A DNA stretch of 39,459 nt from Candidatus Thiodiazotropha sp. (GCA_037382065.1 JARRQF010000107.1:1-39459); one strand, 5' to 3'. Counted from the first letter of the stretch, positions 1,117-30,687 are shown. The notes: generated from the letters alone by a model not told the origin. Program-made: numbers and translations.

Positions 1117-1117
1117 T

Positions 1118-6607: not shown

Positions 6608-6634
6608 AAAAAACCGGGCAAGCCCGGTTTTTTT
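6608..6634. terminator. Intrinsic (bidirectional-type) terminator after PEP-CTERM gene
   Basis: AAAAAACCGGGC-AA-GCCCGGTTTTTTT. Confidence 0.85.
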
Positions 6635-6638
6635 AGGA

Positions 6639-7568: not shown

Positions 7569-7779
7569 GTTCAGATTCCTGTATAAGGGGTTCGTGATGA
7601 GTCAATTGCTATGAGCAAGCGGTATCGTTAGCCCTGCAACACCGCCAATAGGGAGAACCCCCCTTTGTCTGGCATTCGCGTGTTTGCGTACTTCCTGCTT
7701 ACAGCATTCGATGCAGGCTACAGCGGCAGATGCGTGAATGGTCTCACGCCAAGTGGCTGTAGCCGTGCGAGGCGTTATT

Positions 7780-7795
7780 TGCAAAACACATGCCA
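7780..7795 (-). promoter_or_regulatory. sigma54 -24/-12 promoter for PEP-CTERM gene
   Basis: TGGCATGTGTTTTGCA (GG-N10-GC). Confidence 0.75.
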
Positions 7796-7859
7796 TAAAT
7801 AAAATTGCTATCTAAAATATAAGGTTACCTTATATTAATAAGGCTTTGATTTTAATGAG

Positions 7860-7876
7860 TGTAAAATAATTCGACA
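7860..7876. promoter_or_regulatory. Candidate enhancer-binding-protein (PrsR-type) site
   Basis: TGT-N11-ACA (TGTAAAATAATTCGACA) about 65-80 bp upstream of the sigma54 site. Confidence 0.55.
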
Positions 7877-7882
7877 CATGGA

Positions 7883-8114
7883 TGCAGGGCAAGGGTCGCT
7901 CCTGCACATCCATGTGCCCGCGACACGGGTGCATCCATGCACGGTGCGCAACGACGCGGAATAGACCGCTATTCCAAGGAGTTGCAACGCCGCCACAAGC
8001 GTGCCATTCGCGCTGTAGCGTGATTCACCCAATAGGTGACCATAACCATCGAAGCTATTTTCTTTAAAATCAGAAACCTGTTATTAGAATGGAGCAGTTA
8101 ACTGATTTTTTAGG
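7883..8114. mobile_element. MITE-A lacking one end
   Basis: A-family interior; ends TTTTTTAGG then TTCAA 8115-8119. Confidence 0.85.
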
Positions 8115-8144
8115 TTCAATGAGTCAGGTGCTCTGATCATCGCG

Positions 8145-9608: not shown

Positions 9609-10873
9609 TATTCCTTACCCAGCACCAGTGCCGCCTTGAGGCCCGCCTTGCCATAGCGGGACATTTTCACAAATTGGTCTTTTTGAATCGGCATGTTAAT
9701 CGAATCAGAAGGGGTTTCACCAATGGGCTCGTCGACGAAGGGGTCATGCATATAGACAAAATGGTCATCGTACCCAGTCATGATGACCCAATGGGGTTCT
9801 CGCTCTCCGTAGATCATCCAGGAGCTGATCAGCACCAGCACCATGTTGCCATGGGAGACGAACCTCTCGATATCCTCCAGCGATAACGAACCATCGTGAA
9901 GCGGTACCCCTTGCTCTAGTGTGGTGCTTCATACAAATTGACGATGATAGCGTGACGCTAAGCGGTTAGCCGCTAGGCGCGTGCCGCCGGGAATGGCTTC
10001 TCCCTTTCCAAGGCGCGCAACAACGCGGATGTCTCCTGGCCTGAGCAGGCTTCTATCATCGTCAATTTGTATGAAGCACCACACTAGCAGCTCTTCGATC
10101 ATCTCCTCCTGCACTAATCGCATTACTTCCCGCTTGTCTTTGCTGCGTACCGTTTCGGCCAGTAGAATCCCCTGGTCATTTACATACACTGCTACCTTGA
10201 ACCCCCGGCTGGCGGCGGCCAGCGCCAGCCCATAGGGACCACAGCCTCCGTGGCCTGAGGTCATGAAGATGGTGGTCGCCTCCCGCCACAGGCGCAGCTC
10301 CAGGGTGCGGTTTAGTTCCAACGACGGATTAAGGGCGTGCATTGCCATCATCAGGGCAGCAGGTCCACAGGTGAAGTCCAGGGTTTGCTGGTAGTAATCG
10401 ACCTCATTCAACTGGGGCGAGATATCTGGATGCAGGCGCTTCTCCAGACGCCAGGCATCCATGTGATCCTCGTAATAGTCTTGCCATTCCCCAATCCTAC
10501 GATAACCCTGATGTTCGAAAAGGGTTAATGAGGCGGTGTTGTCCTTACGGATCTCCGCACGCATATAGGCACGGCGATGCGCCCAGGCACTCTTTTCTGC
10601 GGCCTCTAGCAGACATGTGCCAATCTTCTTGCCCTGTGAATTGGGATCCACCGCAATGGAATAGAGCCGAGCCATGGAGGTCGCCTTACTGATGAGCACA
10701 GCCACATAACCGGTCAGGCGATCTGCGTTATGGCCCTCGTTTACCAGCAGGGTTGCCTTTCCCTTGGTTAGTAGGTATCGAAATTGGCGGCGCGAAAGCC
10801 GATCCGTGGTGAAACAGAGATTCTCCAACCGCTCCAGTGAATCGATATCAGACAATTGGGCGGAGCGAATCAT
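9608..10873 (-). pseudogene. GNAT (RimI-like) plus C39-like (DUF3335-type) fusion, split by MITE-B
   Basis: YYQQTLDFTCGPAAL, ATTIFMTSGHGGC, PHWV, HDP; removing 168 bp rejoins ...EELL-EQGVPLHDG...NMVLVLISSW in frame (365 aa). Confidence 0.9.
9920..10083. mobile_element. MITE-B full copy (164 bp)
   Basis: About 31-bp TIR TGTGGTGCTTCATACAAATTGACGATGATAG; CTAG at 9916-9919 and 10084-10087. Confidence 0.93.
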
Positions 10874-11052
10874 GGCGCCCTGCTGGGAAAGAAATCATTA
10901 ACCCATTTAATTACCATATCCAGTCACCATAGAGTGGTAAGCCGCCGAACACGATCCGGTCTGCCTCCCCACACAACGGGCCGCTCGGCGGTTCAAAGAC
11001 CCTACAAATCTCAAAAACGGGGATCCGCCATCAGATGGATGGCATGGTGAAA

Positions 11053-11196
11053 TTAGGCGGTGAAGCGGTCGCTGTCAATCATTTCCGACACGATTGGCAG
11101 TTTGTGATGAAGACGTACCGCATTGCTGTCTTGGAGTTTTAAATTTAGCTCCGGATGGGAAAATAGGAGCTGATAACTGTGATCATGGTGATTCAT
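11053..11196 (-). pseudogene. Rpn/YhgA-like (transposase_31) N-terminal relic, 47 codons
   Basis: MNHHDHSYQLLFSHPE resembles the conserved Rpn N-terminus; the rest is unrelated. Confidence 0.55.
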
Positions 11197-11209
11197 GGAA
11201 CTCGTCTAG

Positions 11210-11332
11210 TGTGGTGCTTCATACAAATTGACGATGATAGCGTGACGCTAAGCGGTTAGCCGCTAGGCGCGTGCCGCCGGGAATGGCTTCTCCCTTTCCA
11301 AGGCGCGCAACAACGCGGATGGAAGCACCACA
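11210..11332. mobile_element. MITE-B with 41-bp internal deletion
   Basis: Otherwise identical to the 9920 copy; CTAG 11206-11209 and 11333-11336. Confidence 0.9.
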
Positions 11333-11343
11333 CTAGCATCCCG

Positions 11344-12588
11344 TTAACCTTCTAAACACTGAATGGCGTCGTAGTACTTTTCGTAGTCATATGCGATAAG
11401 AAGATAGTCTACTGAGGATTCAAATGACTGTTTGATACTCTTGCAAAATCCGCGATGATAGATTGCTCCCATTGTCATATCGTCAGTGATTAAAATATTA
11501 TGCATCTTAAGCCTCTCTTTAATCAGATTATGAATAACCTTGTATGAGGTTGACACCGGATGATCAGAGTCTACAGCTGCAAGGGTGACATGGGATAACA
11601 TGACCCATGATTGGGTTGTCGTGGCCAGTCTTGCAAATGGAATGAGATCTCGGTGCCCCAACTCATCAAGCGAATCATCTAATACAGCAGCAAAATAGTG
11701 CGTATCCTCATGAACTCTCGCCAATCCTGGAAAGTGTTTCAATGTAGCTACCACACCTTCGCTTTCCAACCCTCTGATGTATTCAAGAGATACCTCCACC
11801 ACATCCAAAGGATTTGAGGATATGGCACGCGTTCCAATCAAAGTATGAAAATCAAAACCACTGGGCGGAAAATCTGGTATAAGATCCACCACCGGACTGA
11901 AATTCACCGTCACACCCAAACGCCTTAAAGATTCTCCTTGCCGCTTTCCATATTCAAACGCTGATTCTCCCTTTTGATGGATTCGTGCAAGCGTTTCCTG
12001 TTTGGCAATCAAAGGCGATAGTCTCGATACCGGGCCTCCCTCCTGATCTGTCGCCACGATCAGCGCAGGCAACCCATGAGCCTTTCTAACCTCCTGCAGC
12101 TTCGCAATAAACCCTTGCAAGGATTCAAATGTCTCTCCTTTAATGTTTCTTTGAGTTAAAAATATACCTGCTATTCCATTTTCAGCTAACTTTGTCACTT
12201 CAGTGACATCGCTATAGCCAACAATGAACTTGCGATTTAACGCCAGTATCTGCTGTGAGGGATCTGATAAGATCTGTTGCTTGGCGCTTTCATAGCAATA
12301 GTCGCTATACACAACATAGATCGCAAATACCGGGATAATCCAAGAACTTGATCGCCTCAGAAGGGATGGGCTGTAAATTCTACTCAGAGTCCATACCAAG
12401 GCAACGGCGAAAAGATATAGGGGAATTTCAAAATCGCGGATACTCATTAGAAGCGGATTTCGAAAATTAAATGCCCAGACCCCGGTCACGAGGATGAAGG
12501 CAAGCGCTATCAGATCATAGGTAATCCTAATAACTCTCAAGCCCACGGAATCTCTTAGATTAATAACTATTTTCATGGGGAGTTCCAT
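11344..12588 (-). CDS. Membrane-anchored GH3 (NagZ-like beta-N-acetylhexosaminidase)
   Basis: N-terminal TM helices; DQEGG, SPVVD, KHFPGxxxxxxDTH, ITDDMTM. Confidence 0.82.
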   Translation of the reverse strand: MELPMKIVINLRDSVGLRVIRITYDLIALAFILVTGVWAFNFRNPLLMSIRDFEIPLYLFAVALVWTLSRIYSPSLLRRSSSWIIPVFAIYVVYSDYCYESAKQQILSDPSQQILALNRKFIVGYSDVTEVTKLAENGIAGIFLTQRNIKGETFESLQGFIAKLQEVRKAHGLPALIVATDQEGGPVSRLSPLIAKQETLARIHQKGESAFEYGKRQGESLRRLGVTVNFSPVVDLIPDFPPSGFDFHTLIGTRAISSNPLDVVEVSLEYIRGLESEGVVATLKHFPGLARVHEDTHYFAAVLDDSLDELGHRDLIPFARLATTTQSWVMLSHVTLAAVDSDHPVSTSYKVIHNLIKERLKMHNILITDDMTMGAIYHRGFCKSIKQSFESSVDYLLIAYDYEKYYDAIQCLEG

Positions 12589-18067: not shown

Positions 18068-18575
18068 CCAGGGCAATTGCACTACGTTGATCTTATGGGA
18101 CTCGTTGAGAAATCCACTCAATCTCAGAAAGCGGCAGGCATTCGTATGACACATTTAAGGAATGAAATGTAGGATGTGGTGAGGTACGAACCGCATCATG
18201 GATGTTCGTGAGCCACCCCACGATTGATGCGGTTCGCACCGCTCACTGCATCCTATGCAATCACGAATTTTATCGCGTATTCAACAAGAGTGACCTATCG
18301 GTTTAAAAACACCATGGAATATCTCACTCAAATATTGGCACAACATCGAAAATCATGATGCGGTTCGTGCCTCACCACACCCTACGACTTTTGCGAATAT
18401 TTGCGGCATGCTTTTACAACACCCTCCCTTGCGGGAGAGGGCCGGGATGAGGGGGATCCAATAACCGATGAGCTCGCTAAACTTCTCAACCAAACCTAAA
18501 TACTTCGCAACATTTTTATGGCGATTTGTTTCGATTATGCACGAAAACGAGTCCTTTGTAGTGCAATTGTCCTGG
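18068..18575. mobile_element. Composite MITE-like element D carrying three REPs
   Basis: Terminal IR CCAGGGCAATTGCACTAC / GTAGTGCAATTGTCCTGG; REPs at 18169-18198, 18225-18256, 18356-18385. Confidence 0.8.
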
Positions 18576-18754: not shown

Positions 18755-20602
18755 ATGAACCATCGATTTACCTGGCTGATGTTACTCATATTGAGCTTGA
18801 CCCTTTTTGGTTGCGGCGGTGGTGGTGGCAGCAGCGATAGCAAAAGCAGTGGTGGCGATAGCTATGATGATGGCGGAAGCCAGGACCCTGGCGAGTCGGA
18901 TAATGAAGATAATGAAGGTGATGAAGGTGATGAAGGTGATGAAGGTGACAACAGCGGCGGAGGCAACGGGATTACGGATGTACCGGTAAACTCAGGTTCT
19001 CACCAGGTGCTTGCCTTCAATGATCTGGGTATGCACTGTGCCGACCTGGACTACTCCACCTTTGTCATCCTACCACCGTTCAATGTCGTCCACAGCCAAG
19101 TGATTGAACGGGGCGCCACACCCCGCCTGCTCGACAGCACCCAGGCTAGCGTTAGCTACCTGGCGACAACCGATACCTCGGGATCCATCACGACTACCAG
19201 TCAAAATCTCCCCGGAAGTATCAATAAGACTAATTTCTGGAGTATCAATCCCGATACCAGCAATCCCTATGTTTATGACCTGTTTGGTTTGAATCCCGCT
19301 CCGGATGAAGGTCTGATGTTTGGCCAAACCATGCCGGGTATCAGCGCCCCCTACAATGCCAACGAACCCCAGTCCTTCAATGACTTCGACAGCAGCACAT
19401 CCTGGTTCAGCGCGCACGGCATCCCGGTTTTGCCGATCGATGATTCTGGCCAACTCAACGCCTATCCGCTCATGCGGGTTACGGCGAGCGATGTCACCAG
19501 CGGAACTTCATTAGCCAGCCTGGACGTGGTATTGCCGGTTGCCTCAGAAGCAGATTGTCAAAATTGCCATGCCGCAGGCGAAATGGCTGCCCCCATCAGT
19601 AGCAGCATTTCCTATGTATTTCCAAATGACATCACAGATGCCAACTCCGTGCTTCAAGCTGCAAAAGAGAATATCCTGCTATTGCACGATGCTCGCCACG
19701 GCACGCAACTAGTGGCCAGCAAGCCGGTATTGTGCGCCTCTTGTCACTACTCTGCGGCCCTGGATCTGACTGGCTCGGGTCCGAACGCAACCCAGCAGCC
19801 CCATGACACCATGTCGCAAGTCATGCACGGCTATCACGGACAACTGACCGATCAATCCAACCAGCCGATCTTTCCCAGCCAGGGCACTCTGGATGAAACC
19901 TGTTATCAATGTCATCCAGGGAAAACCACGAAATGTCTGCGGGGCGCCATGGGTGGAGCCGGAATCGTCTGCCAGGATTGTCACGGCAGCATGCTCGCGG
20001 TCGGCCAGCAGAGTCGCAAGGCCTGGGTTGACGAACCCCGATGCCAATCCTGCCACACTGGAGACGCCACCAATCACCTGGGTAGCACCCTACGCATGAC
20101 TCAGGCCTGGGATGGTCAGATCGATAACCCGATACCACGAACCACGACCAATACCCGGTTCGCCGAAAACGATGCCACCCTCTACCGAAATAGCCTGGGT
20201 CACGGTGGGGTTGCCTGCGAAGGGTGCCATGGTTCAACCCATGCGATCTGGCCAAATGCCAATGCACAATCCAACGATAATGTTGCAGCCACTCAGTTGC
20301 AGGGCCATGCCGGTACGATTAGTGATTGCAGCGTCTGTCACACCAGCCTGCCTCTGACCCTGGACGGCCCCCACGGCATGCATAATGTCAATAGTAGCTC
20401 CTGGAACTTGAGCCATAGCCGTTACTACCGGAATAACTCAAGCGCCTGTCGTGCTTGTCATGGCCAGAACTTGGAAGGCACCGAGCTCTCCCGGGCCGCC
20501 GAAGATCGAGACTATCTCAGTGATGATGATGGCAACCGGACCATTCATGTGGCGAAAGGCACGCCGGTGAGTTGCAATATGTGTCATCATTCGCCAGGAT
20601 GA
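18755..20602 (+). CDS. Lipoprotein multiheme cytochrome c (9 CxxCH)
   Basis: Lipobox LFGC; Gly/Ser and acidic tether; CQNCH, CASCH, CYQCH, CQDCH, CQSCH, CEGCH, CSVCH, CRACH, CNMCH. Confidence 0.92.
   Translation: MNHRFTWLMLLILSLTLFGCGGGGGSSDSKSSGGDSYDDGGSQDPGESDNEDNEGDEGDEGDEGDNSGGGNGITDVPVNSGSHQVLAFNDLGMHCADLDYSTFVILPPFNVVHSQVIERGATPRLLDSTQASVSYLATTDTSGSITTTSQNLPGSINKTNFWSINPDTSNPYVYDLFGLNPAPDEGLMFGQTMPGISAPYNANEPQSFNDFDSSTSWFSAHGIPVLPIDDSGQLNAYPLMRVTASDVTSGTSLASLDVVLPVASEADCQNCHAAGEMAAPISSSISYVFPNDITDANSVLQAAKENILLLHDARHGTQLVASKPVLCASCHYSAALDLTGSGPNATQQPHDTMSQVMHGYHGQLTDQSNQPIFPSQGTLDETCYQCHPGKTTKCLRGAMGGAGIVCQDCHGSMLAVGQQSRKAWVDEPRCQSCHTGDATNHLGSTLRMTQAWDGQIDNPIPRTTTNTRFAENDATLYRNSLGHGGVACEGCHGSTHAIWPNANAQSNDNVAATQLQGHAGTISDCSVCHTSLPLTLDGPHGMHNVNSSSWNLSHSRYYRNNSSACRACHGQNLEGTELSRAAEDRDYLSDDDGNRTIHVAKGTPVSCNMCHHSPG
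18909..18948 (+). repeat. 9-nt tandem repeat (GATGAAGGT)n encoding DEG linker
   Basis: Seen directly. Confidence 0.85.
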
Positions 20603-20632
20603 TGGTAATTATTAGCGTATTTGAGGTCCTTT

Positions 20633-20967
20633 TTTAAACCGATAGGTCACTCTTTTTGAATACGCGATAAAGTCCGTGATTGCGTAGGATGCGGTGAGCG
20701 GTGCGAACCGCATCAATCGTGCGATGGCTCACGAACATCCATGATGCGGTTCGTACCTCACCACATCCTACATTTTATCCCTTAATGGTGGGACAGAACC
20801 CCACCCTATGACTTTTGCGACACCCTCCAAGGGAAGGGGGATATAAAATAGCGTAAGCGCCGCATACACCACGATCATGAAATGTGTCATGCGAATGCCT
20901 ACCGCTTTCTGAAATTGAGTGGGTATCTCGACGAGTCCCATAAGGTTAACGTAGTGCAATTGCCCTG
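20633..20967. mobile_element. Element D arm (inverted) with REP doublet
   Basis: TIR at 20951-20965; REP doublet 20684-20771; GACTTTTGCGACACCCTC sub-end. Confidence 0.85.
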
Positions 20968-22952
20968 TATCCCTCTCCGATCTGAAGAGCGGGGTTCCTC
21001 GCATAGCATCTGATGAATAACCATAAAAAAGGCAGCAGCCAATCCAGAGCGCCAGCGCCACCCGTTTCGGAAATAACCGGGTTAATGTCAGAGTCAATAC
21101 CATTGCCGAATGCTGTAGATGCTGGGTAGGTTTTTGCCAGGGCTACGGCGGCAGCGGCATCCAATAGGCCGTAACCGCTGTCATCATCCCGGCCATGGCC
21201 ACTCTCAATATCCAGGTAATCACCGTTATTCTTGTTATTGCGTTGATCTATATCCACAGCTGTTTCCTGGAGAATGTATTTTATATCTTTCGGTTGTAAT
21301 TTCGGATTCACTTGCAATAAAAGCGCAATCAGGCCAGCGGCGTGTGGTGCTGCCGCAGAGGTGCCCATAAAATTTGGAAGCCCATCATTATCGTAATCAT
21401 TTTCAGGATGGTCAAACTGAAAAAAGGTTGTATTGTTATTGTCTGGTGCAATAATTTCTGGCTTTTTTCGGTAAATAGGTTGCGCTAATCGATGGCCTTT
21501 TGAATCAAACCAAATAGCAGTGTCTCCGCCAGCAGAAGAGAAAAATTGTAACAAGGGTGACACCATCCCAAAATAGGGTGTTTGATCGTAACTGGCAGCA
21601 CCAACTGTAATAGCCTGCGATGAATTGCTTCGACCAGTGATAGTACCTCGGTTACCGGTGTATTCAATCACGTCACCGCTAAAGCGTCCTTGAATAATAT
21701 ACTTAAAGAGTTTGGGTGAAGGACCAGACGATTTTGTGATCAAAATATTAAAATTTTTTTCTTCGGAAGAGTCAGGGTTGGCAAATTGAATAATTTCCGA
21801 AGGATCTCGTCCCGTATTAATTTGCGTAGCGGTTTCGAGAATTTCAGTGCCTTCCTGATTGACAATGAACATATCCAGATCTGATGAAGCACCTGGGGGT
21901 CCACTGACAGAATAGGCGGGATCTATCCATTGTAATTCGAGTTGCATGACACCTCCCGGCTCCAGCGTGAAAGCCTGAAAGACATCGACACCTTCTCCTG
22001 GATCAAAATCGTGTGCATGGATATCGAGATGTGGATCGTACACATCACGATAGCTAGATTGGTAGGCATTTCGTGCGCTGTTTCCAGCAGCGGACACATA
22101 AATCACGCCATTTTGCGATAATTGTTCGATCACTTGATTGATAGGGCCATCCTGAAAATAGGTCTCTAGTTCTATTGAGCTATCGTCAACAATGATGTTG
22201 ACCTGTTCATCATGGAACTGTTTAAACCCATTTATAGTGTTGGCCATGCCATTTGAGCCGGAAAAAAATAGTAGTTCTGCCTCTGGTGCAATGTCATGGA
22301 TAATTTGCATTAAAGCGCGCCCTTCGTCTGTTTTATTGCTGCAATCAAATGCTTCTTCCAATACAGTGACATTCAGCGGTAATTCTCCATTGGCAATATC
22401 TGAATCTGCACTCCTGTTAAGTTTTTCAATGTCATCGCTTTTTGCATAACAGTTATAACTATCGGACATGACTCCCACTTTGATACCTTTACCGCTCAGG
22501 CCTAGCTCAGACTGTACCGTATCAAGTGACATAGCCTGCAGGCCTTGAGAGATCACGGTGTTGTATGTCATAGTATGGCTGCGGTAAAGGTAATGTAGGG
22601 AGTTTAGTGTCGAAGCTGAATCAAGCGCAGAGATGGGAAGGAATCCGGAGACTATGCGTCCGGCCACTTGAGCATTTGTTAGTCCAATAGCCAATAAATC
22701 GTCCAGCAACTCTTGGCCATCGCGTTTTGCCACAGCATCGACCGTCACTAAAACGTCGACGGGCCGATTTGATGTTAGACTCCTCTGTTTATTGCTTTGC
22801 GCCTTGCTTAACCTGAGTAAATCAGTATCCAGTGTAGAATTGATTTTATTACGCGCTACTATTTCCCCCATCCCTTTTGTTGGAAAAGCATTTACTGGCT
22901 GAAAGTTAACTAATAATATGAAATAAGTAATAATGATAAAATAAATATTCAA
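20946..22952 (-). CDS. Secreted S8/S53-like serine protease with GlyGly-CTERM-like anchor
   Basis: Signal peptide; VGVMSDS; DEGRALMQIIHDIAP (Glu where subtilisin has His); SAAGN; GTSAAAPH; GGAGALDWLLPFLWLFIR tail. Confidence 0.88.
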   Translation of the reverse strand: MNIYFIIITYFILLVNFQPVNAFPTKGMGEIVARNKINSTLDTDLLRLSKAQSNKQRSLTSNRPVDVLVTVDAVAKRDGQELLDDLLAIGLTNAQVAGRIVSGFLPISALDSASTLNSLHYLYRSHTMTYNTVISQGLQAMSLDTVQSELGLSGKGIKVGVMSDSYNCYAKSDDIEKLNRSADSDIANGELPLNVTVLEEAFDCSNKTDEGRALMQIIHDIAPEAELLFFSGSNGMANTINGFKQFHDEQVNIIVDDSSIELETYFQDGPINQVIEQLSQNGVIYVSAAGNSARNAYQSSYRDVYDPHLDIHAHDFDPGEGVDVFQAFTLEPGGVMQLELQWIDPAYSVSGPPGASSDLDMFIVNQEGTEILETATQINTGRDPSEIIQFANPDSSEEKNFNILITKSSGPSPKLFKYIIQGRFSGDVIEYTGNRGTITGRSNSSQAITVGAASYDQTPYFGMVSPLLQFFSSAGGDTAIWFDSKGHRLAQPIYRKKPEIIAPDNNNTTFFQFDHPENDYDNDGLPNFMGTSAAAPHAAGLIALLLQVNPKLQPKDIKYILQETAVDIDQRNNKNNGDYLDIESGHGRDDDSGYGLLDAAAAVALAKTYPASTAFGNGIDSDINPVISETGGAGALDWLLPFLWLFIRCYARNPALQIGEGYRAIALR

Positions 22953-23566
22953 GGTGCTTTCACCGGGAGTGGGGGTTCATTTCTCAAGAATTCACGTAAT
23001 ATTAATAGTTCTTGACGAAACCCTGGGCGATGATAAATAGCGAGGGGGTGATTAGCAGGAAGGCCGAACCGTTTTTTACCAACAATAAGCGTTTCCCCGC
23101 TCCACTCTTCGAGAAACTTCGCAACCGACATTCTAATATTTCCCCTGCTTGGATCAGCCAGAAAGACTCTATCTTCCACAACGCCCCGTAGAATAGCAAA
23201 ATGCTTATAACCTTCTGGTTGAATAAAAACAAGCACAGGTCCCTGAAGTTGTTTTAGTGCAGTGATATTCAACCGAACACTAGCGACCTGATAACCCTTG
23301 ATTTGGCAAATTTTTTCTAGTTCTAGAAAGGACAGACCAGATTGCTTGATGGTATTTAACTCCTGTTCATCAAAAATATCGTTTATTTCATTAAGTAGAC
23401 TTTGCTCTGTCATATATTCTTTAAAATAGTAACGCAATAATGTTGCCAATGACGCCGCACCACAGGAGTAGTCGTAGCGTTGCATAATGATATTTTTTTC
23501 ATTTAGTTCTTTCCAAGATTTTATCCTGGTGGGGTGTGTTTCAACTATGTATCCACCGTTTGTCAA
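22949..23566 (-). CDS. Stand-alone C39 peptidase (FapD-like); start uncertain
   Basis: QRYDYSCGAASLATLL, KHFAIL, LADPSRGN; overlaps protease start (ATGA-type coupling). Confidence 0.88.
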   Translation of the reverse strand: MTNGGYIVETHPTRIKSWKELNEKNIIMQRYDYSCGAASLATLLRYYFKEYMTEQSLLNEINDIFDEQELNTIKQSGLSFLELEKICQIKGYQVASVRLNITALKQLQGPVLVFIQPEGYKHFAILRGVVEDRVFLADPSRGNIRMSVAKFLEEWSGETLIVGKKRFGLPANHPLAIYHRPGFRQELLILREFLRNEPPLPVKAP

Positions 23567-23604
23567 TAATGGGGCTGTGCTGCATCCACTAAAACCTAGC
23601 AGTG

Positions 23605-24612
23605 CTAGAAGTTATAGATATAGTTAAGACCAAAAGAAGTATTATTCGCATCCTCATTCAAGCCAAAATCAACAAAGGTTTCCATGCTCAATTTTTTACT
23701 TATACGGTAGATAGTTCCGAATACAAATGATATTGGTTCGTTGCTCGAGCCGACCCTTTTTTTGCCGTTTACTTCAAGCTCTTTAGAGTAGCTGCCCGAT
23801 ACTCGGCCACTCAGTGATATCGCGCTGTTTATCGATAAACCGGTACCTAAACTGTAGGAATAGGTGTTCCCAGGCTGGAGATTAAGGCCGGATTTTTCCT
23901 CTTCAAACAGGTGACTGAACCCGAAAGAGAAAAACATAACGGCTGGATCTACTGATTTCGTAAAACTAAAGCTTCCACTTAAGCCCCAATAACCTGAACT
24001 GATGGCAGGAGATTCCGAAGCGCTGTTATCATCACTATCGTCTGTTGGTGCTTGAATCTTTAACGAAGCAGTCATACTTGGAAACTTTACCGTTTCAGGT
24101 AACACTTGATATGAAAATCCCATTAAGATATCACCGAACCCTTTGTTTGTATTTTTATCTCCATCACCAAATGATGTATATTCACTTTCGGTAAAAACCA
24201 GAGGGATGGAAATGTATGATTCAAGGTTTTCAGTGACTCCAATACTGATAACGATTGGTAATGAAAGCGTTCTGTCACGGGTTTTACGGAGGTTAGAGAA
24301 TTCTTCTTCTGAACTATAGTTTACTCCAAATGTTAACTGAACTTTCCTAGGAGCAAGTAATACTTCGGACTCGCGTACAAACAAATGACTGATATCATTA
24401 TCCGGTGCCTCACCTATTGTCTCAGGTTGACTTGTTTGCTGCTGATCCGATGAATTGTCTATTTCGGTTGAATCAGTAGTAATGATTTCATTAGCCTGGG
24501 CGTTGAATAATATGGAGGAAAATAGTACAAACGTAATTAAGAGATTTCTTTGGCACGCGCTAATACTATATTTTTCATATTGCTCACTTTTGCTATGTCC
24601 ATATACGTACAT
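23605..24612 (-). CDS. Outer-membrane beta-barrel transporter (FapF/MetA-pathway-like)
   Basis: Signal peptide ending AQA; RESEVLL, GFGDI, KSVDPAVMF, alternating strands; terminal YIYNF; adjacent to C39. Confidence 0.8.
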   Translation of the reverse strand: MYVYGHSKSEQYEKYSISACQRNLLITFVLFSSILFNAQANEIITTDSTEIDNSSDQQQTSQPETIGEAPDNDISHLFVRESEVLLAPRKVQLTFGVNYSSEEEFSNLRKTRDRTLSLPIVISIGVTENLESYISIPLVFTESEYTSFGDGDKNTNKGFGDILMGFSYQVLPETVKFPSMTASLKIQAPTDDSDDNSASESPAISSGYWGLSGSFSFTKSVDPAVMFFSFGFSHLFEEEKSGLNLQPGNTYSYSLGTGLSINSAISLSGRVSGSYSKELEVNGKKRVGSSNEPISFVFGTIYRISKKLSMETFVDFGLNEDANNTSFGLNYIYNF

Positions 24613-24696
24613 ATAAGTTCTGTCGGTGGTGTTGTGGTAAATGTGGTGATGCTTTTAAATAGCTTAGCTTTAATGTAACACCAAATTACGTAATAA

Positions 24697-24714
24697 AAAT
24701 CCCCCCAAGGGGTG
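24697..24714. promoter_or_regulatory. Operator-like motif 1, copy a
   Basis: AAATCCCCCCAAGGGGTG; 16/18 identical to 25389-25406. Confidence 0.6.
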
Positions 24715-24878
24715 GTTTCTGAGTAAGCATCTGGCCAACAGCAGAATTTACCTACCCCGACTATTTGCTAAATTCAAAATTCCAGGGCATAACCGATAGC
24801 TGTGTTCATCGTACCCTTGCTACTATTTGATTTGAAAAAAGTGTTATTGGCTGGAGACTTACATTTTAGAGAGGTATA

Positions 24879-24909
24879 TTAGAGTCCCTGCGGTAAACAG
24901 GGACTCTAA
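24879..24909. terminator. 12-bp stem-loop after the precursor gene
   Basis: TTAGAGTCCCTG-N7-CAGGGACTCTAA; no clear U-tract. Confidence 0.6.
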
Positions 24910-24979
24910 CTGCTGCTTTATCTAATAAAATTAGCTAATTTTGATAAAGAATAATCGATTTCTGAGGGGTGTAAATCAT

Positions 24980-25285
24980 CTAATATGATTTAGTTATTAC
25001 GGAACCATCCCTTTTCGGGTCAACTGCCAAAGCACTGAGCCACCCCACCTTCACCCAACAAACACCACGGCCTCGGCACCACTGATAAGCCCTCGTACGG
25101 GCAGATCCGCCAAAAAAGGCTTCTCCTCGCGTGTCCGACCTTTCATTAGTTGACAGAAACGCAACTGCGTTGTCATCGATAGAATTTAGAATATTTGGCG
25201 TGGAAGAAAGTTCTCCAGCATAGGTTGTACCAATTGATGTAACTAACAATAACAATGATGCAAGTATTTTTTTCATGATTTTCAC
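24980..25285 (-). CDS. Small secreted precursor peptide (signal, acidic pro-region, cationic core)
   Basis: Sec signal to TYA; LSTNERSDTRG motif; 47-aa R/K/W-rich tail with two Cys; start GTG 25285 or ATG 25276. Confidence 0.8.
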   Translation of the reverse strand: MKIMKKILASLLLLVTSIGTTYAGELSSTPNILNSIDDNAVAFLSTNERSDTRGEAFFGGSARTRAYQWCRGRGVCWVKVGWLSALAVDPKRDGSVITKSY

Positions 25286-25388
25286 CTTAAAATATTTAAC
25301 ATGGGATAGTTATCTCTAACTAAATTTTCTGTTGGAAAGAAAAAATAGTTATTGACGTAGCAAATGTTAGCTAAGCATCTAATTTTGT

Positions 25389-25406
25389 AAATCCCCCCAA
25401 AAGGTG
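25389..25406. promoter_or_regulatory. Operator-like motif 1, copy b
   Basis: AAATCCCCCCAAAAGGTG. Confidence 0.6.
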
Positions 25407-25707
25407 AAAATTCGTAGGTCGCGTAGAAATAGCGCTAAATACCCTCCGAAACTTGAGTTACTTAAATTGCTTCTGGGCGTCTGAACGATAGTCACATCCG
25501 ATGCAAAACCAGATCTCAACTTAAAGGTGATTTTGATGAATGCCTAACTCCTTAAATTCCATCCGCCTTAGAATATTGAACACCTTATTATTGGCCATAG
25601 AGAATTTAGGAAATGACAGCCTTCATAGATTTTTGTAATAAAACATCGATTAAAACAAAAACTGATTCACAATTTCCCTACAAAGTTACGATATGAAAAT
25701 GTTATTT

Positions 25708-25740
25708 CTGTTCTAATTTAGAAATCTGGACACTTTCATT
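25708..25740 (+). promoter_or_regulatory. Operator-like motif 2, copy a (upstream of AraC)
   Basis: 29/33 identical to 27225-27257. Confidence 0.65.
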
Positions 25741-25873
25741 CTTAATAGACAATAGGTGTTTATTTTTAATTAGTAGTTACTATTGCTATATATCCAGATT
25801 CAATTGTGGCTACTTACTAATTAGCAAATTTTGTGATGCGGTTATTTAGTATACATAATTCAATATAAAGCCC

Positions 25874-26926
25874 ATGATAATAAAACTCTTGTTGCTTTGG
25901 AATTGCGGGCTACTATTTTTATTAATTATCGGTCAGTGTTTTGTTCCAAATAAAACCTGTAAAAATTTTACACTATCTTTACTGGCGATAACCTGTGGTG
26001 TATGGATTTTTAATACCGCTCTTTATTATTTCGGCTTACATAATCAATTACCACATTTAAATAAAATTCACATCCCCTTTCTCTGTCTTAGTGGAACTAG
26101 TTGGTACTTATATGTAAAGTGCTTCATAGGTAGACATATCTTCGAGGCTAAAGATTTCGCTCATTTATTACCAGCAATTATCTGTGTGCTATTGGGATTA
26201 CCCTTTTATTTTGAATCCGCTGAGTTTAAATTGAGCTATATAGAAACATCGCTTGATAGTTTGTCAGTGATTTTAATGTATATTGCCTCTCGAATTTCTG
26301 AAATAAATAGCTTTGTTTATCTTATTTTAACTCTTTTATTGGTCTATAGGCAGCTAACATCTATCAATAATTCATCCCAAAAAAAGACCTATAGGATCAT
26401 ATTATATATTACTATTATTGCCATGTTTAGCTTGGCATTGCGTACGTTGGGAGCAGTTTCCAATATCCAGTTTATTAGTATTATTATTCCATCCATTATA
26501 ATTTTATTCTTATTTACAGTGCTTTACAGTCTCAGCTATTACAATCCGTCTGTTTTATTTAATAATGTAAAAGAACAAATGGCGGTTTTTAAAGAAATCA
26601 TAGAAAGGGATAAGGTATATTTGAATTCTAATATTACATTGGCAGAGCTTGCGAGCCAATTAAATACGCAACCTTATATATTGTCTGAAGTAATTAACGC
26701 CTCTATGAATATAAATTTTAAGACATTTATTAATGGTTTGCGTATAGAGCATGCCGCCAGGTTGCTCATTCAGGAAAAAAAGACATCCATACTTGAGATA
26801 ACGTATGCGTCTGGATTTAATAGTAAATCTGTTTTCTACAAGCACTTCTTTGAGGCAAAATCAATGACGCCTGTGCAATACCGCAAAATGTGCTTAGAGA
26901 AAAAAACTTGTATGGATATCCACTAA
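25874..26926 (+). CDS. Membrane-embedded AraC-family regulator
   Basis: Multiple N-terminal TM helices; LSEVIN, FINGLRIE, SGFNSKSVFY, TPVQYR. Confidence 0.9.
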   Translation: MIIKLLLLWNCGLLFLLIIGQCFVPNKTCKNFTLSLLAITCGVWIFNTALYYFGLHNQLPHLNKIHIPFLCLSGTSWYLYVKCFIGRHIFEAKDFAHLLPAIICVLLGLPFYFESAEFKLSYIETSLDSLSVILMYIASRISEINSFVYLILTLLLVYRQLTSINNSSQKKTYRIILYITIIAMFSLALRTLGAVSNIQFISIIIPSIIILFLFTVLYSLSYYNPSVLFNNVKEQMAVFKEIIERDKVYLNSNITLAELASQLNTQPYILSEVINASMNINFKTFINGLRIEHAARLLIQEKKTSILEITYASGFNSKSVFYKHFFEAKSMTPVQYRKMCLEKKTCMDIH

Positions 26927-27224
26927 CGCTGGATATTGCTTATTCGCTTTTGTGCACTTCGAGAAGCATGTCATTTTAACTAATCTGCTAAAATTTCTGG
27001 CTTTCTATATGAGTAGACTGGAAGGTAGGTGTGTTTTTTAGGAATATTGTATTTAAGTATAATTGAGCATTAGAAAATTTTTATAATTAGCATTATAAGA
27101 ATTTCTTTTTCTCTTAAAAAAGTCCTACTTTGCAACACTAAACTTTCGAAAAATAATTCCCAGTTCGGTTATATAATAAAAAATTAAAACTGGATCACAA
27201 TTTTGATGGGAAATTGTCCTAATC

Positions 27225-27257
27225 CTGTTCTATTTTATAAATCCGGACGCTTTCATT
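27225..27257 (+). promoter_or_regulatory. Operator-like motif 2, copy b (upstream of LuxR HTH)
   Basis: CTGTTCTATTTTATAAATCCGGACGCTTTCATT. Confidence 0.65.
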
Positions 27258-27338
27258 ATCAAATTTTGATAGATTTTTCACTGTGCATTCCAAAAAAGCA
27301 ATTTGAAGTAACTATATGTTTCTATTTGGAGGGAATCA

Positions 27339-27551
27339 GTGACACCTAAAAAAGCACAGATTTATGGCATGCTACTTAAGGCTAAAAGCTATAAGGAAAT
27401 TGCTAGCGAGTTAAATATTTCAAAAGAGACCGTTAAAACGCATTGCAGAGATATTTACCGATTGCATGATGTGAAAAACCGCAGCGAGTTAATTGCGTGG
27501 GTTCTCAATAAAAAAATCAAAGGACTACGAATGACTGAGCTAATTCGGTAG
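27339..27551 (+). CDS. Stand-alone LuxR/GerE-type HTH regulator
   Basis: SYKEIASELNISKETVKTHCRDIY...VKNRSEL; GGAGG RBS. Confidence 0.85.
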   Translation: MTPKKAQIYGMLLKAKSYKEIASELNISKETVKTHCRDIYRLHDVKNRSELIAWVLNKKIKGLRMTELIR

Positions 27552-27624
27552 TAGATTTACTAGTGAATGCTTTAATGACGAATACATAAATTACTCACCC
27601 ACTATGGCTCTACGTTGGTATGAC

Positions 27625-28009
27625 GGGACTCGTCGAGATACCCACTCAATCTCAGAAAGCGGCTGGAATTCGCATGACACATTTCATGATCGTGATGTAA
27701 GTTGCGCTTACACTATTTTATATCCCCCTCACCCTGGCGCTATCCCCTTTGAGGGTGTCGCAAAAGTCGTAGGGAGGGGTTCTGTCCCACCATTAAGGGA
27801 TGAAATGTAGGATGTGGTGAGGTACGAACCGCATCATTGATGTTTGTGTGCCATCGCACTATTGATGCGGTTCGCACCGCTCACCACATCCTACGACTTT
27901 TGCGAATATTCGCGGCATGCTTTTACAACACCCTCCCTTGCGGGAGAGGGCAGGGATGAGGGGGATCCAATAACCGCTAAGTTTGCTAAACTTCTCAACC
28001 AAACCTAAA
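27625..28009. mobile_element. Element D-type composite with REP doublet
   Basis: Inverted homolog of 20683-20939; right part matches 18385-18500. Confidence 0.85.
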
Positions 28010-28237
28010 CACTCCGATCTGGAGCGCTTGAAGGACCTGGATGTTATGGTTGATTTTATAAGTCAACACCCTATCGTTGCGAGCAGGCTGGTATCGATTA
28101 ATATGAAAAGTTACACCATCTATTTTGATGATTACTGCGAAGCGGTTTTTGCTAGACAATCGACCAATATTCATCCCGGTTGGGCTGGCCCTGCGAGTGC
28201 TCTGGAATTTCAGCGTGCCACTTGCCCTGTTGACTGA
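28010..28237 (+). pseudogene. 5'-truncated small hypothetical protein
   Basis: Protein-like KDLDVMVDFI...PGWAGPA..LEF...CP; ORF start lies in the repeat. Confidence 0.5.
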
Positions 28238-28361
28238 AAAGAGAGGAGCGACAGGAATAAATGCGCAAATAACGGGTCCAGAACACGCTTTGCTCTAATA
28301 TAATATTACTCTATCATCGTACAGCGTAATGGGCAGATAAGAAGTAGTCAAACTTTCCTTA

Positions 28362-28586
28362 TAGAAACCAATCGCCACAAAAATATTGCGAAGTATTTAG
28401 GTTTGGTTGAGAAGTTTAGCGAGCTCAGCGGTTATTGGACCCCCCTCAGGATGCGGTGAGCGGTGCGAACCGCATCAATAGTGGGGTGGCTCACGAACAT
28501 CCATGATGCGGTTCGTACCTCACCACATCCTACGTTTCATCCCTTAATGGTGGGACAGAACCCTCCTACGACTTTTGCGACACCCT
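28362..28586. repeat. D-arm fragment plus REP doublet
   Basis: Matches 18450-18535 (inverted) and 20686-20826. Confidence 0.85.
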
Positions 28587-28648
28587 TGACCAGCAAGGAT
28601 GTGTGTCACGAGAAGCTTATCGGCTATTGTGGCAGAGATTTCAACTAG

Positions 28649-28821
28649 TGTGGTGCTTCATACAAATTGACGATGATAGAAGCCTGCTCAGGCCAGGAGA
28701 CAAGGCGCAATGCGCAGGGAATGGCTCGCCCTTTTCAAGCATTGCAACGCAGTATCCTGCGCGCCTAGCGACTAACCGCTTAGCGTCACGCTATCATCGT
28801 CAATTTGTATGAAGCACCACA
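28649..28821. mobile_element. MITE-B full copy (173 bp)
   Basis: TIRs; CTAG 28645-28648 and 28822-28825. Confidence 0.93.
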
Positions 28822-30687
28822 CTAGAGCTTAAAGCACTCAATCAGGGTAGTTAGCCGCTTTGTCCACTCCTGCATTCCTTGGCTGGCAGCTGAGGTCTGT
28901 CGGGCACCCACAGCACTCTGTTCGGAGATTTGCGTGATGCTGCTGATGTTGTGGCTGATCTCTTCCGCTACCATTCGTTGCTCTTCCGATGCGCCTGCAA
29001 TCTGAACATTCATTTCATTGATCGTGCTCACTGCGCGGGTAATGGTCTCTAACGACTGGCCTGTCTGATTGGCTTGCTGTACGGTATTGCTGACCTGCTC
29101 CAGGCTTTGTTCCATGGTTGTCACGGCTTGCTGTGCGCCCAGTTGCAGCCGTTCAATCATTTTCTGAATATCATGGGTCGACTTTTGAGTGCGGCTCGCA
29201 AGGGTTCTTACTTCATCGGCAACCACTGCAAAACCTCGTCCTTGTTCACCGGCCCGAGCTGCTTCGATGGCAGCGTTTAGGGCCAGCAGATTGGTCTGCT
29301 CGGCAATGCTGCGAATGACATCCAACACACCGCCGATATTATTGCTTTCGGTGTGCAGCTTCTGGATTACTTCAGTTGCATTATGGATGTTAAGAGAAAG
29401 CTGGTTGATGGAGTCAATCGTGCCTTGAACGACGCTTCTACCACTGCTGGCATCATGGTCCGCATCCCGGGCAGCATTGGCTGCCTGTTCTGCATTCCGT
29501 GCTACATCCTGAACCGTGGTAGTCATTTCGCGCATGGCGTTGGCTACCTGTTCAGTTTCAACGGATTGCTGTTCAATCCCGGATGAGGTCTGGATGGCTA
29601 TCTCTTGCATTTCAAACGCCGATTTTGAAAGATTATCTCCCATGCTTCTGAACTGGCTGACAATATCTCTTAAGCTGTCAACCATCTTTAACATGGATGC
29701 CATCAATCGACCGATTTCGTCATTTGTGGTGTGTTGAACATCATGGGAAAGGTCTCCTTCAGCAATGAATTCCAAGGTGGTTACCGCTTCCTCAAGGGGC
29801 TTAAAGGCTTTGCGGATATACCAGGTCATTCCGGCAGCGATAAGGATGAAACCTGCAAGTACAACCAGATAGCTTATGAGTTTGCTTTGTTGCTGATACG
29901 AATAGCTTTCGGTGTAATCATGTGAGCTGATTAAATTTGCGGTGGAGCTATTTGTTGAATCTAGGATTTCAGTGATAGCTAGTGCGTACGTTTTGCCCTC
30001 AGCATTATTGACCTGGAAACCCTCGTCTTCAGTCTGGATTTTCTCTATCCCTAAGTTATCAAACAGTTGTGGGTTGGTGGAATAGTCCTGTGCGCCATTT
30101 TTACCGATGATCAATACATCGGAATGAGTACTCTTCTGCAATGATATGGCTGCACTTTCCACGTTTCTAATGTAGACAGCGATACCAATCGGTTTGCCGC
30201 GGGTAACCAGTGGAAAAGCCAATACCACATCCAGTTCGCCACTCTCTCCGCGTTCAATTCCGCGCATGATTTTACCTTCTGAGAGTGTTTGTTGGACCAG
30301 TGTTGAGCGGCTTTTTCCTTGGTAGGTCTGTGGTGCTGAAAAGAGTATATTATTATCAAGATCGAGCAGCTGCATCTTGGTGATGATATTCGATGTACTC
30401 AAGCGTCTGTAGGCCGGAGCCGCGACCTTTTTCAATAGCTCAATATTCTTATTGGCTACCGCCTTGCGGATCTCCCGGTCTCGGGTAATCCCGGACATGC
30501 CTGTTTCCATAGCGTCGTGCTGGCTTTCAATGATTTTCGTCCACAGTAGCTGCTGGCTTTGTAAGGTTGCATTGACGAATCGATCCTGAATTTGGTTCTG
30601 CATGATTCTTCCTGAAATGAAAAGAACCAGACTGATAATAAGCGTGCTGACAACGGCTGTCAGGATAATTCGTGTACGCAGCAGCAT
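28822..30687 (-). CDS. Methyl-accepting chemotaxis protein (Cache-like sensor, HAMP)
   Basis: 2 TM; [34 protein letters not shown]. Confidence 0.95.

What the first reader, a model, noticed from the sequence alone, without database searches (positions are those of the whole stretch)
20946..27551. Fap-like exporter (FapF plus FapD) apparently repurposed for a non-amyloid cationic peptide, with a surface protease and its own regulators
Seen: four co-oriented genes (precursor, OM barrel, stand-alone C39 peptidase, anchored subtilase) facing a divergent membrane AraC and a solo LuxR HTH. Known: barrel plus free C39 is the core of the Pseudomonas Fap amyloid secretion system, whereas double-glycine bacteriocins normally use C39 fused to an ABC transporter. 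Seen: no N/Q-rich FapB/FapC repeats and no ABC transporter here. Inference: a two-step (Sec, then barrel) export and maturation route for a peptide toxin or signal. I cannot confirm it is undescribed.
Basis: partly seen in the sequence, partly recalled or inferred. Interest (0 to 1): 0.85.

Follow-up and report, generated by a model that had tools for sequence, protein, structure and literature searches.

The report
Fap-type peptide exporter with surface protease
A salt-marsh bacterium carries a four-gene cassette whose pore and cutting enzyme are relatives of the Pseudomonas amyloid exporter; it likely exports a small, fast-changing, positively charged peptide (probably an antibacterial), and its lineage has added a predicted cell-surface protease that the known systems lack.

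Summary
Observation confirmed. The barrel is a FapF homologue (profile E 6e-41). The C39 is FapD-like but a predicted lipoprotein. The window's assembly lacks 45 nt holding its start; independent records have it. The precursor is Sec signal + double-glycine-type leader ending R-G-E (24 of 24 relatives) + a variable cationic core, usually with two Cys. A paralogous cassette lies on contig C109. Barrel-C39-S8 recurs in 11 loci that form one clade in the C39 tree; the 9 complete S8s form a matching clade, so the subtilase is a real part. Three loci put small membrane genes right after the precursors or just before the barrel, as toxin-immunity pairs do. The concept is not new: the Neisseria nap island (FapF homologue + free C39 + cationic peptides) is published, and this scan found the class before on other DNA (8 findings listed, none matching this sequence). 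What differs: Sec-plus-RGE cargo family, lipoprotein C39, co-inherited His-to-Glu subtilase. Regulators: the solo LuxR has some support (shared upstream motif); the AraC only its position. Toxin function and the S8's role are inferred. New variant of a known kind; interest 0.5.

The parts
24980..25276 (-). Precursor gene, 98 aa: Sec signal + leader + core
   Evidence: family of 24 sequences; no Pfam or NCBIfam hit; covered by RNA contigs in 4 of 4 RNA runs laid, one study
25217..25276 (-). Predicted Sec signal peptide, residues 1-20 (judged by eye: basic start, hydrophobic stretch, small-residue end)
   Evidence: sequence; no signal-peptide predictor was run
25121..25216 (-). Leader, residues 21-52, ending R-G-E; in double-glycine register L(-12), E(-8), T(-4), G(-2), E(-1)
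   Evidence: P27, R50, G51, E52 invariant in 24 of 24; register table; residues 24-54 form the modelled interface with the C39
24983..25120 (-). Predicted mature core, residues 53-98 (46 aa), cationic and aromatic, C67/C73 pair, predicted beta-alpha-beta-beta mini-fold
   Evidence: net +5 and pI 9.9 counted from E52; AlphaFold2 pLDDT 74-82 over residues 51-90
24879..24909 (-). 12-bp stem-loop between precursor and barrel; possible terminator or mRNA stabiliser
   Evidence: read from the sequence; similar hairpin after the C109 precursor; not flagged by the terminator scan
23605..24612 (-). FapF-like outer-membrane barrel, 335 aa, ends in Phe
   Evidence: phmmer to FapF 5o68 E 7e-11; family profile to 5o65 E 6e-41 over chain residues 25-333; NCBIfam FapF 60 bits against cut-off 700
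22949..23600 (-). Stand-alone C39 peptidase, predicted lipoprotein (lipobox Cys codon 23582-23584); Q29, C35, H122, D138 present (205-aa ORF numbering); true 5' end missing from this assembly at 23599/23600
   Evidence: lipobox pattern in 91 of 120 relatives, Cys invariant in the 57 full-length ones I chose to align
20946..22952 (-). Subtilase-family protease, 668 aa, Sec-type N-terminus; D164, E210 (D-E-G-R-A motif, where His is expected), N291, S532
   Evidence: PF00082; these residues invariant in 9 of 9 cassette S8s; cassette S8s one clade, SH-aLRT 100
20985..21059 (-). C-terminal Gly-rich motif + hydrophobic helix + basic residues of the S8 (GlyGly-CTERM-like anchor)
   Evidence: seen in 9 of 9 cassette S8s; TIGR03501 did not hit it; rhombosortase and GspD are in the genome above cut-off
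25391..25404 (-). Candidate operator (CCYTT-N0/1-GGGGGGAT, near-palindromic) about 115 nt upstream of the precursor
24699..24711 (-). Second copy of the candidate operator upstream of the barrel
25874..26926 (+). Membrane-anchored AraC regulator, divergent; 17 aa missing from this assembly at 26553/26554; not a conserved part of the cassette
27339..27551 (+). Solo LuxR-type HTH, 70 aa; candidate regulator
20631..20967 (.). Genome-wide dispersed repeat bounding the low-GC island on the left; related copies at 27604-28016 on the right
   Evidence: 108-214 blastn hits per segment in the genome, so not specific to this locus

Best explanation
The cassette encodes a signal-plus-leader precursor, a FapF-related barrel, a free C39 peptidase and a subtilase, and it likely works as a two-step export line for a small antibacterial peptide: Sec would carry the precursor to the periplasm, the predicted lipid-anchored C39 likely binds the leader and cuts after R-G-E, the barrel would release the 46-residue core, and the predicted surface-anchored subtilase likely protects the producer by cleaving peptide at its own surface. 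Shown: gene content and order, homologies, conserved leader against variable core, joint inheritance of S8 with C39, RNA contigs over the precursor. Predicted: leader binding by the C39, the core fold and its disulfide. Inferred: the cut site (from register with double-glycine leaders), passage through the barrel (from FapF), toxicity (from charge, variability and immunity-like genes in relatives), type II export and anchoring of the S8, and the S8's role (protection about 50%, second activating cut about 30%, other about 20%). The solo LuxR is the likely direct regulator through the near-palindromic motif.
For: Barrel = FapF homologue over the whole barrel, plug Glu aligned (plug residues from PMC5557850). 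FapD is periplasmic and its Cys is needed for secretion (PMC5557850). The leader matches double-glycine register: L/M/V at -12 in 24 of 24, E/D at -8 in 20 of 24, G at -2 and E at -1 in 24 of 24; two GG leaders of the same genome and two FapE-like proteins fall in the same register. Complex model: score 0.72, best of 3 controls 0.38 (the mark was reached by 116 of 157 solved complexes and 2 of 215 mismatched pairs; runs agree in at least 65% of contacts; partner pLDDT at least 58); the interface is precursor 24-54 against C39 residues including C35 and H122. Related C39 domains are solved, so the pass may come from memory. Leader more conserved than core in 228 of 276 pairs, medians 43% and 28%. 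Cores 43-69 aa, net positive in 23 of 24, two Cys in 21 of 24. In G016 and L025 each precursor is followed by its own 3-4-TM gene or genes, and L023 has one before the barrel; the six are 33-47% identical to each other. P0002, whose longest contig has the same length (5584) as those of a barrel and C39 99.5-99.7% identical to the window's, has a core only 79% identical plus a 3-residue insertion (same contig inferred, not seen). Patchy and low GC: 2 of 45 genomes of the genus; 29-45% GC against 47% for the genome. S8: 11 S8-bearing C39s form one clade, 100/99, among 53 rows; the S8 tree has the same main groups. Precedent for cationic cargo with killing activity: nap island.
Against: No activity was tested. 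No immunity-like gene in the window or anywhere in G000, and such genes occur in only 3 of 11 S8-bearing loci. Nap peptides, the nearest functional precedent, did not kill competitors. The core has no fold match (best Z 3.2; none at E<=0.001). Position -7 of the leader is polar (S/A/R/K/D in 24 of 24), unlike the hydrophobic residue of the two GG leaders and two FapE-like proteins compared. The barrel lacks FapF's N-terminal coiled coil (judged by eye) and the K401 partner of the plug Glu, both tied to secretion in FapF. The anchor fails TIGR03501. S8s of this His-to-Glu type also occur without a C39: none of 18 non-G000 S8 loci had one within 1.5 kb. In L026 the precursor is divergent from the barrel, and in L029/L031 it lies downstream of the S8. 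13 of the 24 precursors have no genomic context seen.
Confidence: 0.5

Rival explanations
1. Same export route, but the subtilase is a second maturation enzyme: the C39 cuts after Gly51 (or only licenses export) and the surface S8 removes the acidic N-terminal residue(s) or the whole leader, so the peptide becomes active only outside the cell and needs no immunity protein.
For: Glu at -1 is invariant in this clade (24 of 24) but occurs in 1 of 19 candidate leaders from S8-less loci; no C39 residue that explains it was found; 8 of 11 S8-bearing loci show no immunity-like gene; the S8 start overlaps or abuts the C39 stop. LanP-type anchored proteases work this way (recalled, no call).
Against: Register with GG leaders already places a single C39 cut after E52; the model has the C39 covering residues 24-54; three loci keep both S8 and immunity-like genes.
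Confidence: 0.2
2. The peptide is a secreted signal (self-recognition, or directed at a plant host), the membrane AraC senses it, and the S8 clears it.
For: Divergent membrane AraC and solo LuxR; allele variation between near-identical strains; precursor RNA contigs come from a root metatranscriptome; LuxR-type genes beside 4 of 11 cassettes, one hit weak.
Against: AraC not found beside the other 10 cassettes; in G002 a truncated AraC + LuxR pair sits without the cassette; a 46-residue folded core is large for a pheromone; per-precursor membrane genes look more like immunity than like receptors (inference).
Confidence: 0.15
3. The core is a structural subunit (non-N/Q fibre, adhesin or surface coat) exported in bulk as in Fap, with the S8 trimming or recycling it.
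For: Machinery is Fap-derived; cores are aromatic-rich with predicted beta strands; a hairpin follows the precursor; only the precursor was recovered in all four RNA runs (depth cannot rank genes).
Against: No repeats, N+Q at most 12%; no FapB/C/E family hit for the 4 precursors scanned; strongly cationic, divergent cores in tandem with cognate membrane genes are not expected of a fibre subunit.
Confidence: 0.1
4. This copy is decaying: the C39 has really lost its start and the C109 paralogue supplies the function or none is needed.
For: The window sequence lacks the start and most of the signal; the G016 barrel is split by an insertion sequence.
Against: Run X1's contig, 1 substitution different over the 2.7 kb on one side, has the 45 nt; P0140 is full length in JGI and Logan records.
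Confidence: 0.05

Closest known systems
Neisseria nap island: NapF, NapP, NapA/B/C, NapI, NapH, NapR (Poncin et al. 2025, PMC11798529; seen: passages, first part of Results, supplement S1 Fig)
   Same: FapF homologue + stand-alone periplasmic C39 + small cationic peptides with a double-glycine-type cut site, on a low-GC patchy island with a small regulator; no ABC transporter; periplasmic cleavage and barrel export proposed, not shown.
   Different: The paper notes no Sec signal for Nap peptides and invokes a holin for the inner membrane; here the cargo has a Sec signal before the leader. NapP has an ordinary signal, this C39 a lipobox. Naps are helical with GG/GA sites; here a two-Cys mini-fold after R-G-E. 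No subtilase in nap. No sequence comparison with Nap proteins was run.
Pseudomonas Fap system, fapABCDEF (Rouse et al. 2017, PMC5557850; seen: passages on FapD, plug and coiled coil)
   Same: Homologous 12-stranded barrel with plug Glu; free C39 with Q/C/H/D; Sec-first route; FapE-like proteins carry a leader in the same register.
   Different: No FapA/B/C/E, no N/Q repeats; no coiled coil seen; K401 not kept; C39 lipidated; FapF and FapD models far below cut-off (60/700, 88/330); added subtilase.
Class II microcin / double-glycine bacteriocin export by PCAT + membrane-fusion protein
   Same: Leader register, C39 chemistry, small cationic core, immunity-like neighbours in some loci. The same genome has such a cluster on C263, beside a paralogue of the solo LuxR and the same motif.
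   Different: C39 not fused to an ABC transporter; cargo has a Sec signal; -1 residue is Glu; export predicted in two steps.
Acinetobacter fil locus (NCBIfam FilA/FilB/FilC)
   Same: Free C39 (FilB 84 bits) and related barrel (FilC 30 bits).
   Different: Far below cut-offs (475, 630); no FilA-like subunit hit; a paper search for it returned nothing.
GlyGly-CTERM / rhombosortase-anchored S8/S53 proteases (Haft and Varghese 2011, PMC3237569; seen: passages)
   Same: Signal peptide, Gly-rich motif, TM helix, basic tail; the paper shows S8/S53 members with this tail; rhombosortase and GspD present in the genome.
   Different: TIGR03501 does not score this tail; a tie to a peptide-export operon was not in the passages read.

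Membership tests
Fap amyloid system | FapF-homologous outer-membrane barrel with helical plug | tested here: met
   E 6e-41 over the barrel, plug Glu aligned; below the equivalog cut-off
Fap amyloid system | Stand-alone exported C39 with catalytic Cys/His | tested here: met
   lipoprotein signal rather than ordinary signal; FapD model 91 bits of 330 for P0140
Fap amyloid system | N/Q-rich amyloid subunits FapB/FapC and FapE in the operon | tested here: not met
   no NCBIfam hit for the precursor; no FapC-type motif in the window; the same models do hit true Fap-like loci L015 and L017
Fap amyloid system | N-terminal trimeric coiled coil on the barrel | tested here: inconclusive
   N-terminal region is a short acidic linker by eye and the alignment to FapF starts at the plug; no coiled-coil predictor or model was run
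Neisseria nap island type | FapF homologue + free C39 + small cationic peptide with a C39-type site, no ABC transporter | tested here: met
   against the description
Neisseria nap island type | Helical GG/GA peptides with no annotated Sec signal, holin-like NapH, NapI | tested here: not met
   cargo has Sec signal + R-G-E leader + two-Cys core; no small membrane gene in the window cassette
Neisseria nap island type | Role in autolysis of the producer | not testable with these tools
   needs culture and mutants
Class II microcin (PCAT-exported) | C39 fused to an ABC transporter plus membrane-fusion protein in the locus | tested here: not met
   no Walker A gene in 8 of 9 loci scanned, and the one hit is an unrelated ABC operon on C109
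Class II microcin (PCAT-exported) | N-terminal double-glycine leader | tested here: inconclusive
   register matches at -12, -8, -4, -2, but the leader is internal (after a Sec signal), -7 is polar and -1 is Glu
Class II microcin (PCAT-exported) | Antibacterial activity and cognate immunity gene | not testable with these tools
   immunity-like genes in 3 of 11 loci, none in G000; no named family for them
GlyGly-CTERM protein | TIGR03501 tail | tested here: not met
   no hit, although the tripartite pattern is visible in 9 of 9
GlyGly-CTERM protein | Rhombosortase and type II secretin in the genome | tested here: met
   TIGR03902 159.6 bits (cut-off 84); TIGR02517 597 bits (cut-off 351)
Canonical subtilisin S8A | Asp-His-Ser triad | tested here: inconclusive
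   Asp, oxyanion Asn and Ser motifs kept; Glu stands where His is expected in 9 of 9; the model was too poor to check geometry (mean pLDDT 51.5)
Acinetobacter fil | FilA-type subunit with FilB and FilC | tested here: not met
   no FilA hit on the precursor; FilB and FilC scores far under cut-off; FilA does hit L018

The most novel reading that the evidence does not exclude
An undescribed family of polymorphic, disulfide-stapled mini-protein toxins of sediment and root-zone bacteria, secreted by Sec and a FapF-type pore after a lipid-anchored C39 cuts a Glu-terminated leader, whose lineage recruited a surface Glu-for-His subtilase once as a general self-protection or activation step, so that new cores can be swapped in without a matching immunity protein. 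It would be a bacteriocin class that ABC-transporter-based mining cannot see, and the simplest substrate for the unsolved FapD specificity question.
Probability: 0.3. Interest if true: 0.75.

Novelty: new variant of a known kind. Interest (0 to 1): 0.5.

Why it matters
The target of FapD-type periplasmic C39 peptidases was left open in the structural paper (PMC5557850), and export through NapF is only proposed. This cassette offers one small substrate with an invariant, unusual site (R-G-E), a natural allele series of 24 cores, and a two-copy genome, so cut site, barrel dependence and leader portability can be tested directly. If the cores are antibacterial, they are a peptide family with no Pfam, NCBIfam or fold match, missed by ABC-based mining. 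The co-inherited subtilase raises a specific new question: protection or activation by a surface protease in a Gram-negative peptide system.

Tried and rejected
Fold search of the precursor model: nothing at E<=0.001 in PDB, best Z 3.2 among 48,161 chains; this does not show a new fold. Atlas look-ups: precursor best score 0.86, unnamed; membrane protein 0.92, unnamed clusters. S8 model unusable (pLDDT 51.5), so no fold search on it. Search of genome contigs with the single C39 gave 1 distant locus. The deep profile search against protein representatives never ran, so the family size of 24 is a floor. Promoter and terminator scan at chance level (20 against 21; 6 against 4.7). Motif enrichment by genome count rejected: G432 has 5 hits but 4 lie inside genes, and G002 has the LuxR homologue but no hit. 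RNA 3' end at 24912 rejected as evidence: one study, and a DNA contig breaks at the same place. Lack of RNA cover over C39, AraC and LuxR is no evidence. Flanking repeats are genome-wide. No C39 residue explaining -1 Glu (10 against 31 rows, L017 dropped); clade-specific F80 and E84 lie in the modelled leader interface. Weak precursor-profile hits in 5 S8-less loci (E 9e-6 to 3e-4) were not counted as family members. C39 tree left out S8-less loci with under 1.5 kb downstream; S8 tree left out fragments and G063 rows. Paper searches that found no description of this S8-bearing variant: (open-access full text only; search listings seen except for the three papers read). Genome G063 is unpublished: it enters only the tallies 44 of 400, 13 of 401 and 3 of the 18 S8 loci; no other claim rests on it.
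Full report
1. Observation. The window is G000:C107, in a 5.25-Mb, 47% GC, 571-contig genome. Its DNA occurs in salt-marsh metagenomes and, in part, in root metatranscriptomes. Named close C39 relatives are Gammaproteobacteria; I did not determine the genus. The genes lie in a 29-45% GC stretch between 48-55% GC neighbours. No ABC transporter or N/Q-rich subunit is present.

2. Two gaps in the assembly. The C39 frame reads stop, then a hydrophobic stretch and a lipobox, with no ATG/GTG/TTG before it. Against the C109 and G016 copies 45 nt are missing. A 3113-nt contig of run X1 maps in two pieces around 23599/23600 with about 45 extra nt. Cluster member P0140 is 232 aa with a complete lipoprotein signal. 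The AraC likewise lacks 51 nt present in three runs and two protein records. I treat both as assembly defects.

3. Barrel and C39. The barrel hits only FapF in the PDB (E 7e-11). A 20-sequence family profile reaches E 6e-41 from the plug to the C-terminus, with the plug Glu aligned and the K401 position not kept (residues from PMC5557850). The C39 keeps Q, C, H and D in 10 of 10 clade members checked. A lipobox pattern occurs in 91 of 120 relatives, and the Cys is invariant in the 57 full-length ones I chose to align. FapD, by contrast, has an ordinary Sec signal, as does NapP. Both proteins are far below the FapF, FapD, FilB and FilC cut-offs.

4. Cargo. Searches gave 24 distinct precursors, 11 with context beside an S8-bearing cassette and 13 without context. 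P27 and R50-G51-E52 are invariant. The leader is more conserved than the core in 228 of 276 pairs. Set against two GG leaders of the same genome and two FapE-like proteins, the register is L(-12), E(-8), (-4), G(-2), with Glu at -1; this places the likely cut after E52. Position -7 is polar, a departure. In 19 candidate leaders from S8-less loci the -1 residue varies and is Glu once. Cores are 43-69 aa, net positive in 23 of 24, 13-33% aromatic, with two Cys in 21 of 24. AlphaFold2 gives the window core a beta-alpha-beta-beta fold at pLDDT 74-82, the leader being low-confidence; no fold match was found. A complex model puts precursor residues 24-54 on the C39, C35 and H122 included: 0.72 against a best control of 0.38, a mark reached by 116 of 157 solved and 2 of 215 mismatched pairs, with at least 65% contact agreement and partner pLDDT at least 58. 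It supports binding but does not show it, and may reflect solved C39 relatives. RNA contigs with no substitutions cover the precursor in 4 of 4 RNA runs laid, all from one study.

5. Recurrence. C109 of the same genome has two precursors, barrel (70%), C39 (80%) and S8 (78%). In the genus 2 of 45 genomes have the C39; in a class-wide draw 44 of 400 have some relative. Among the 80 best metagenome loci, a barrel lies within 1.5 kb in 57, or 20 of the 25 with room on both sides; an S8 follows in 8 of the 58 with at least 600 nt downstream. The 11 S8-bearing C39s (some near-duplicates, such as L029/L031) are one clade, 100/99, among 53 rows. The 9 complete cassette S8s are one clade among 21 with the same main groups. 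None of 18 other S8 loci had a C39 within 1.5 kb. So the S8 was likely recruited once from a wider free-standing family and then inherited with the C39. S8-less loci carry other leader-tagged cargoes.

6. The subtilase. It has a Sec-type start, invariant D164, N291 and S532, and Glu in a D-E-G-R-A motif where His is expected; that this resembles S53-like subtilases is recalled, not tested. All 9 end in Gly-rich motif, hydrophobic helix and basic residues. The genome has rhombosortase and GspD, and S8/S53 proteases with such tails are described (PMC3237569), but TIGR03501 does not score this tail. Surface anchoring is therefore an inference.

7. Signs of conflict. G016 and L025 (the same cassette as G164) carry tandem precursors, each followed by one or two 3-4-TM genes, and L023 has one before its barrel; the six are 33-47% identical. 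None is found in G000.

8. Regulators. No AraC homologue lies beside the other 10 cassettes. A truncated AraC + LuxR pair survives in G002 without the cassette. LuxR-type genes of different subtypes lie beside 4 of 11 cassettes, one hit weak. The solo LuxR has two paralogues in G000; one heads a canonical cluster of two GG precursors, HlyD and PCAT on C263. A near-palindromic motif, first seen upstream of the window precursor, the window barrel and the C109 precursor, was then relaxed to include a site before the C263 precursors. The relaxed form has 5 copies against 0.39 expected, 4 of them at these places; being fitted after the fact, that figure overstates. An independent copy lies between a LuxR homologue and a small secreted gene in G432. 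Of the other 31 distinct hits in the genus I inspected 17, and all were inside called ORFs, two of them short and doubtful. The motif was not found at nine other S8-bearing loci apart from one loose match. The LuxR is a fair candidate regulator in this genome; the AraC is unproven.

9. Mechanism. Most likely: Sec export, leader binding and cutting by the anchored C39, disulfide formation, exit through the barrel, antibacterial action, with the surface S8 as protection or activator. I put the export route at about 0.8, the toxin role at about 0.6, and the whole at 0.5. Rivals are listed with their tests.

10. What is known. The nap island already joins a FapF homologue, a free C39 and cationic peptides (PMC11798529). 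This locus works like it and like Fap but is a member of neither by the tests above. This scan had noted the class on other DNA (8 findings listed); none matched this precursor or C39 by sequence, or the S8 by words. Eight paper searches of open-access text found no account of this variant. Supplements other than nap S1 Fig were not read; those of PMC5557850 (FapE motifs) may bear on the leader claim.

11. Verdict. Real, recurrent and coherent; a new variant of a known kind. Interest 0.5; most novel reading probability 0.3, interest 0.75 if true.

Noticed in passing
L176 (G000:C263) 1720-6407, minus strand: Canonical double-glycine bacteriocin-type cluster: solo LuxR paralogue, two short GG-leader precursors (about 58 aa), HlyD protein, C39-ABC transporter; carries the same upstream motif as the window cassette.
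   Followed up: partly
L001 (G000:C109) 804-5520, minus strand: Paralogous intact cassette with two different precursors; transposase remnant upstream; no regulator on the part of the contig read.
   Followed up: yes
L014 (G016:C55) 3177-11353: Cassette with two precursor + membrane-gene pairs, each preceded by a duplicated upstream segment; barrel split by an insertion sequence; solo LuxR HTH convergent after the S8.
   Followed up: partly
L184 (G432:C307) 1952-4672; L003 (G000:C330) 45-2914: Solo LuxR homologue, the motif, a 119-aa secreted protein without Pfam hit, and a 412-aa protein whose relative lies near the third LuxR copy in G000.
   Followed up: partly
L177 (G000:C25) 2225-6451: Second C39-ABC transporter, 974 aa with two ABC domains, after an HlyD-like gene; no precursor looked for.
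   Followed up: no
window 18076-18535, 20631-20967, 27604-28016, 28361-28586: Dispersed palindromic repeats, over 100 genome hits per segment, often in inverted pairs between genes.
   Followed up: partly
window 18755-20602 (+): 615-aa multiheme cytochrome with lipoprotein-type start and an acidic low-complexity linker (PF14522, PF22113).
   Followed up: no
window 8145-10873 (-): GNAT + C39-like DUF3335 fusion followed by a RimK-like ATP-grasp protein with RLAN domain: a separate peptide-modifying pair.
   Followed up: no
window 1473-7568 (-): GH43-CBM6-ricin-GH10 multidomain glycosidase, a ricin-lectin esterase and a PEP-CTERM adhesive-domain protein: plant-polymer use and surface attachment.
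   Followed up: no
window 28645-28679 and 28791-28825: Perfect 35-nt inverted repeat, arms 111 nt apart, at the 3' end of the chemoreceptor gene.
   Followed up: no
L033, L034, L042, L043, L046: Lipoprotein C39 genes with no barrel nearby; in L033 and L042 followed by a small lipoprotein that carries a leader-like motif.
   Followed up: no
L139 (G322:C10) 35768-38249 in contig coordinates: Two C39 genes facing each other about 1.5 kb apart.
   Followed up: no
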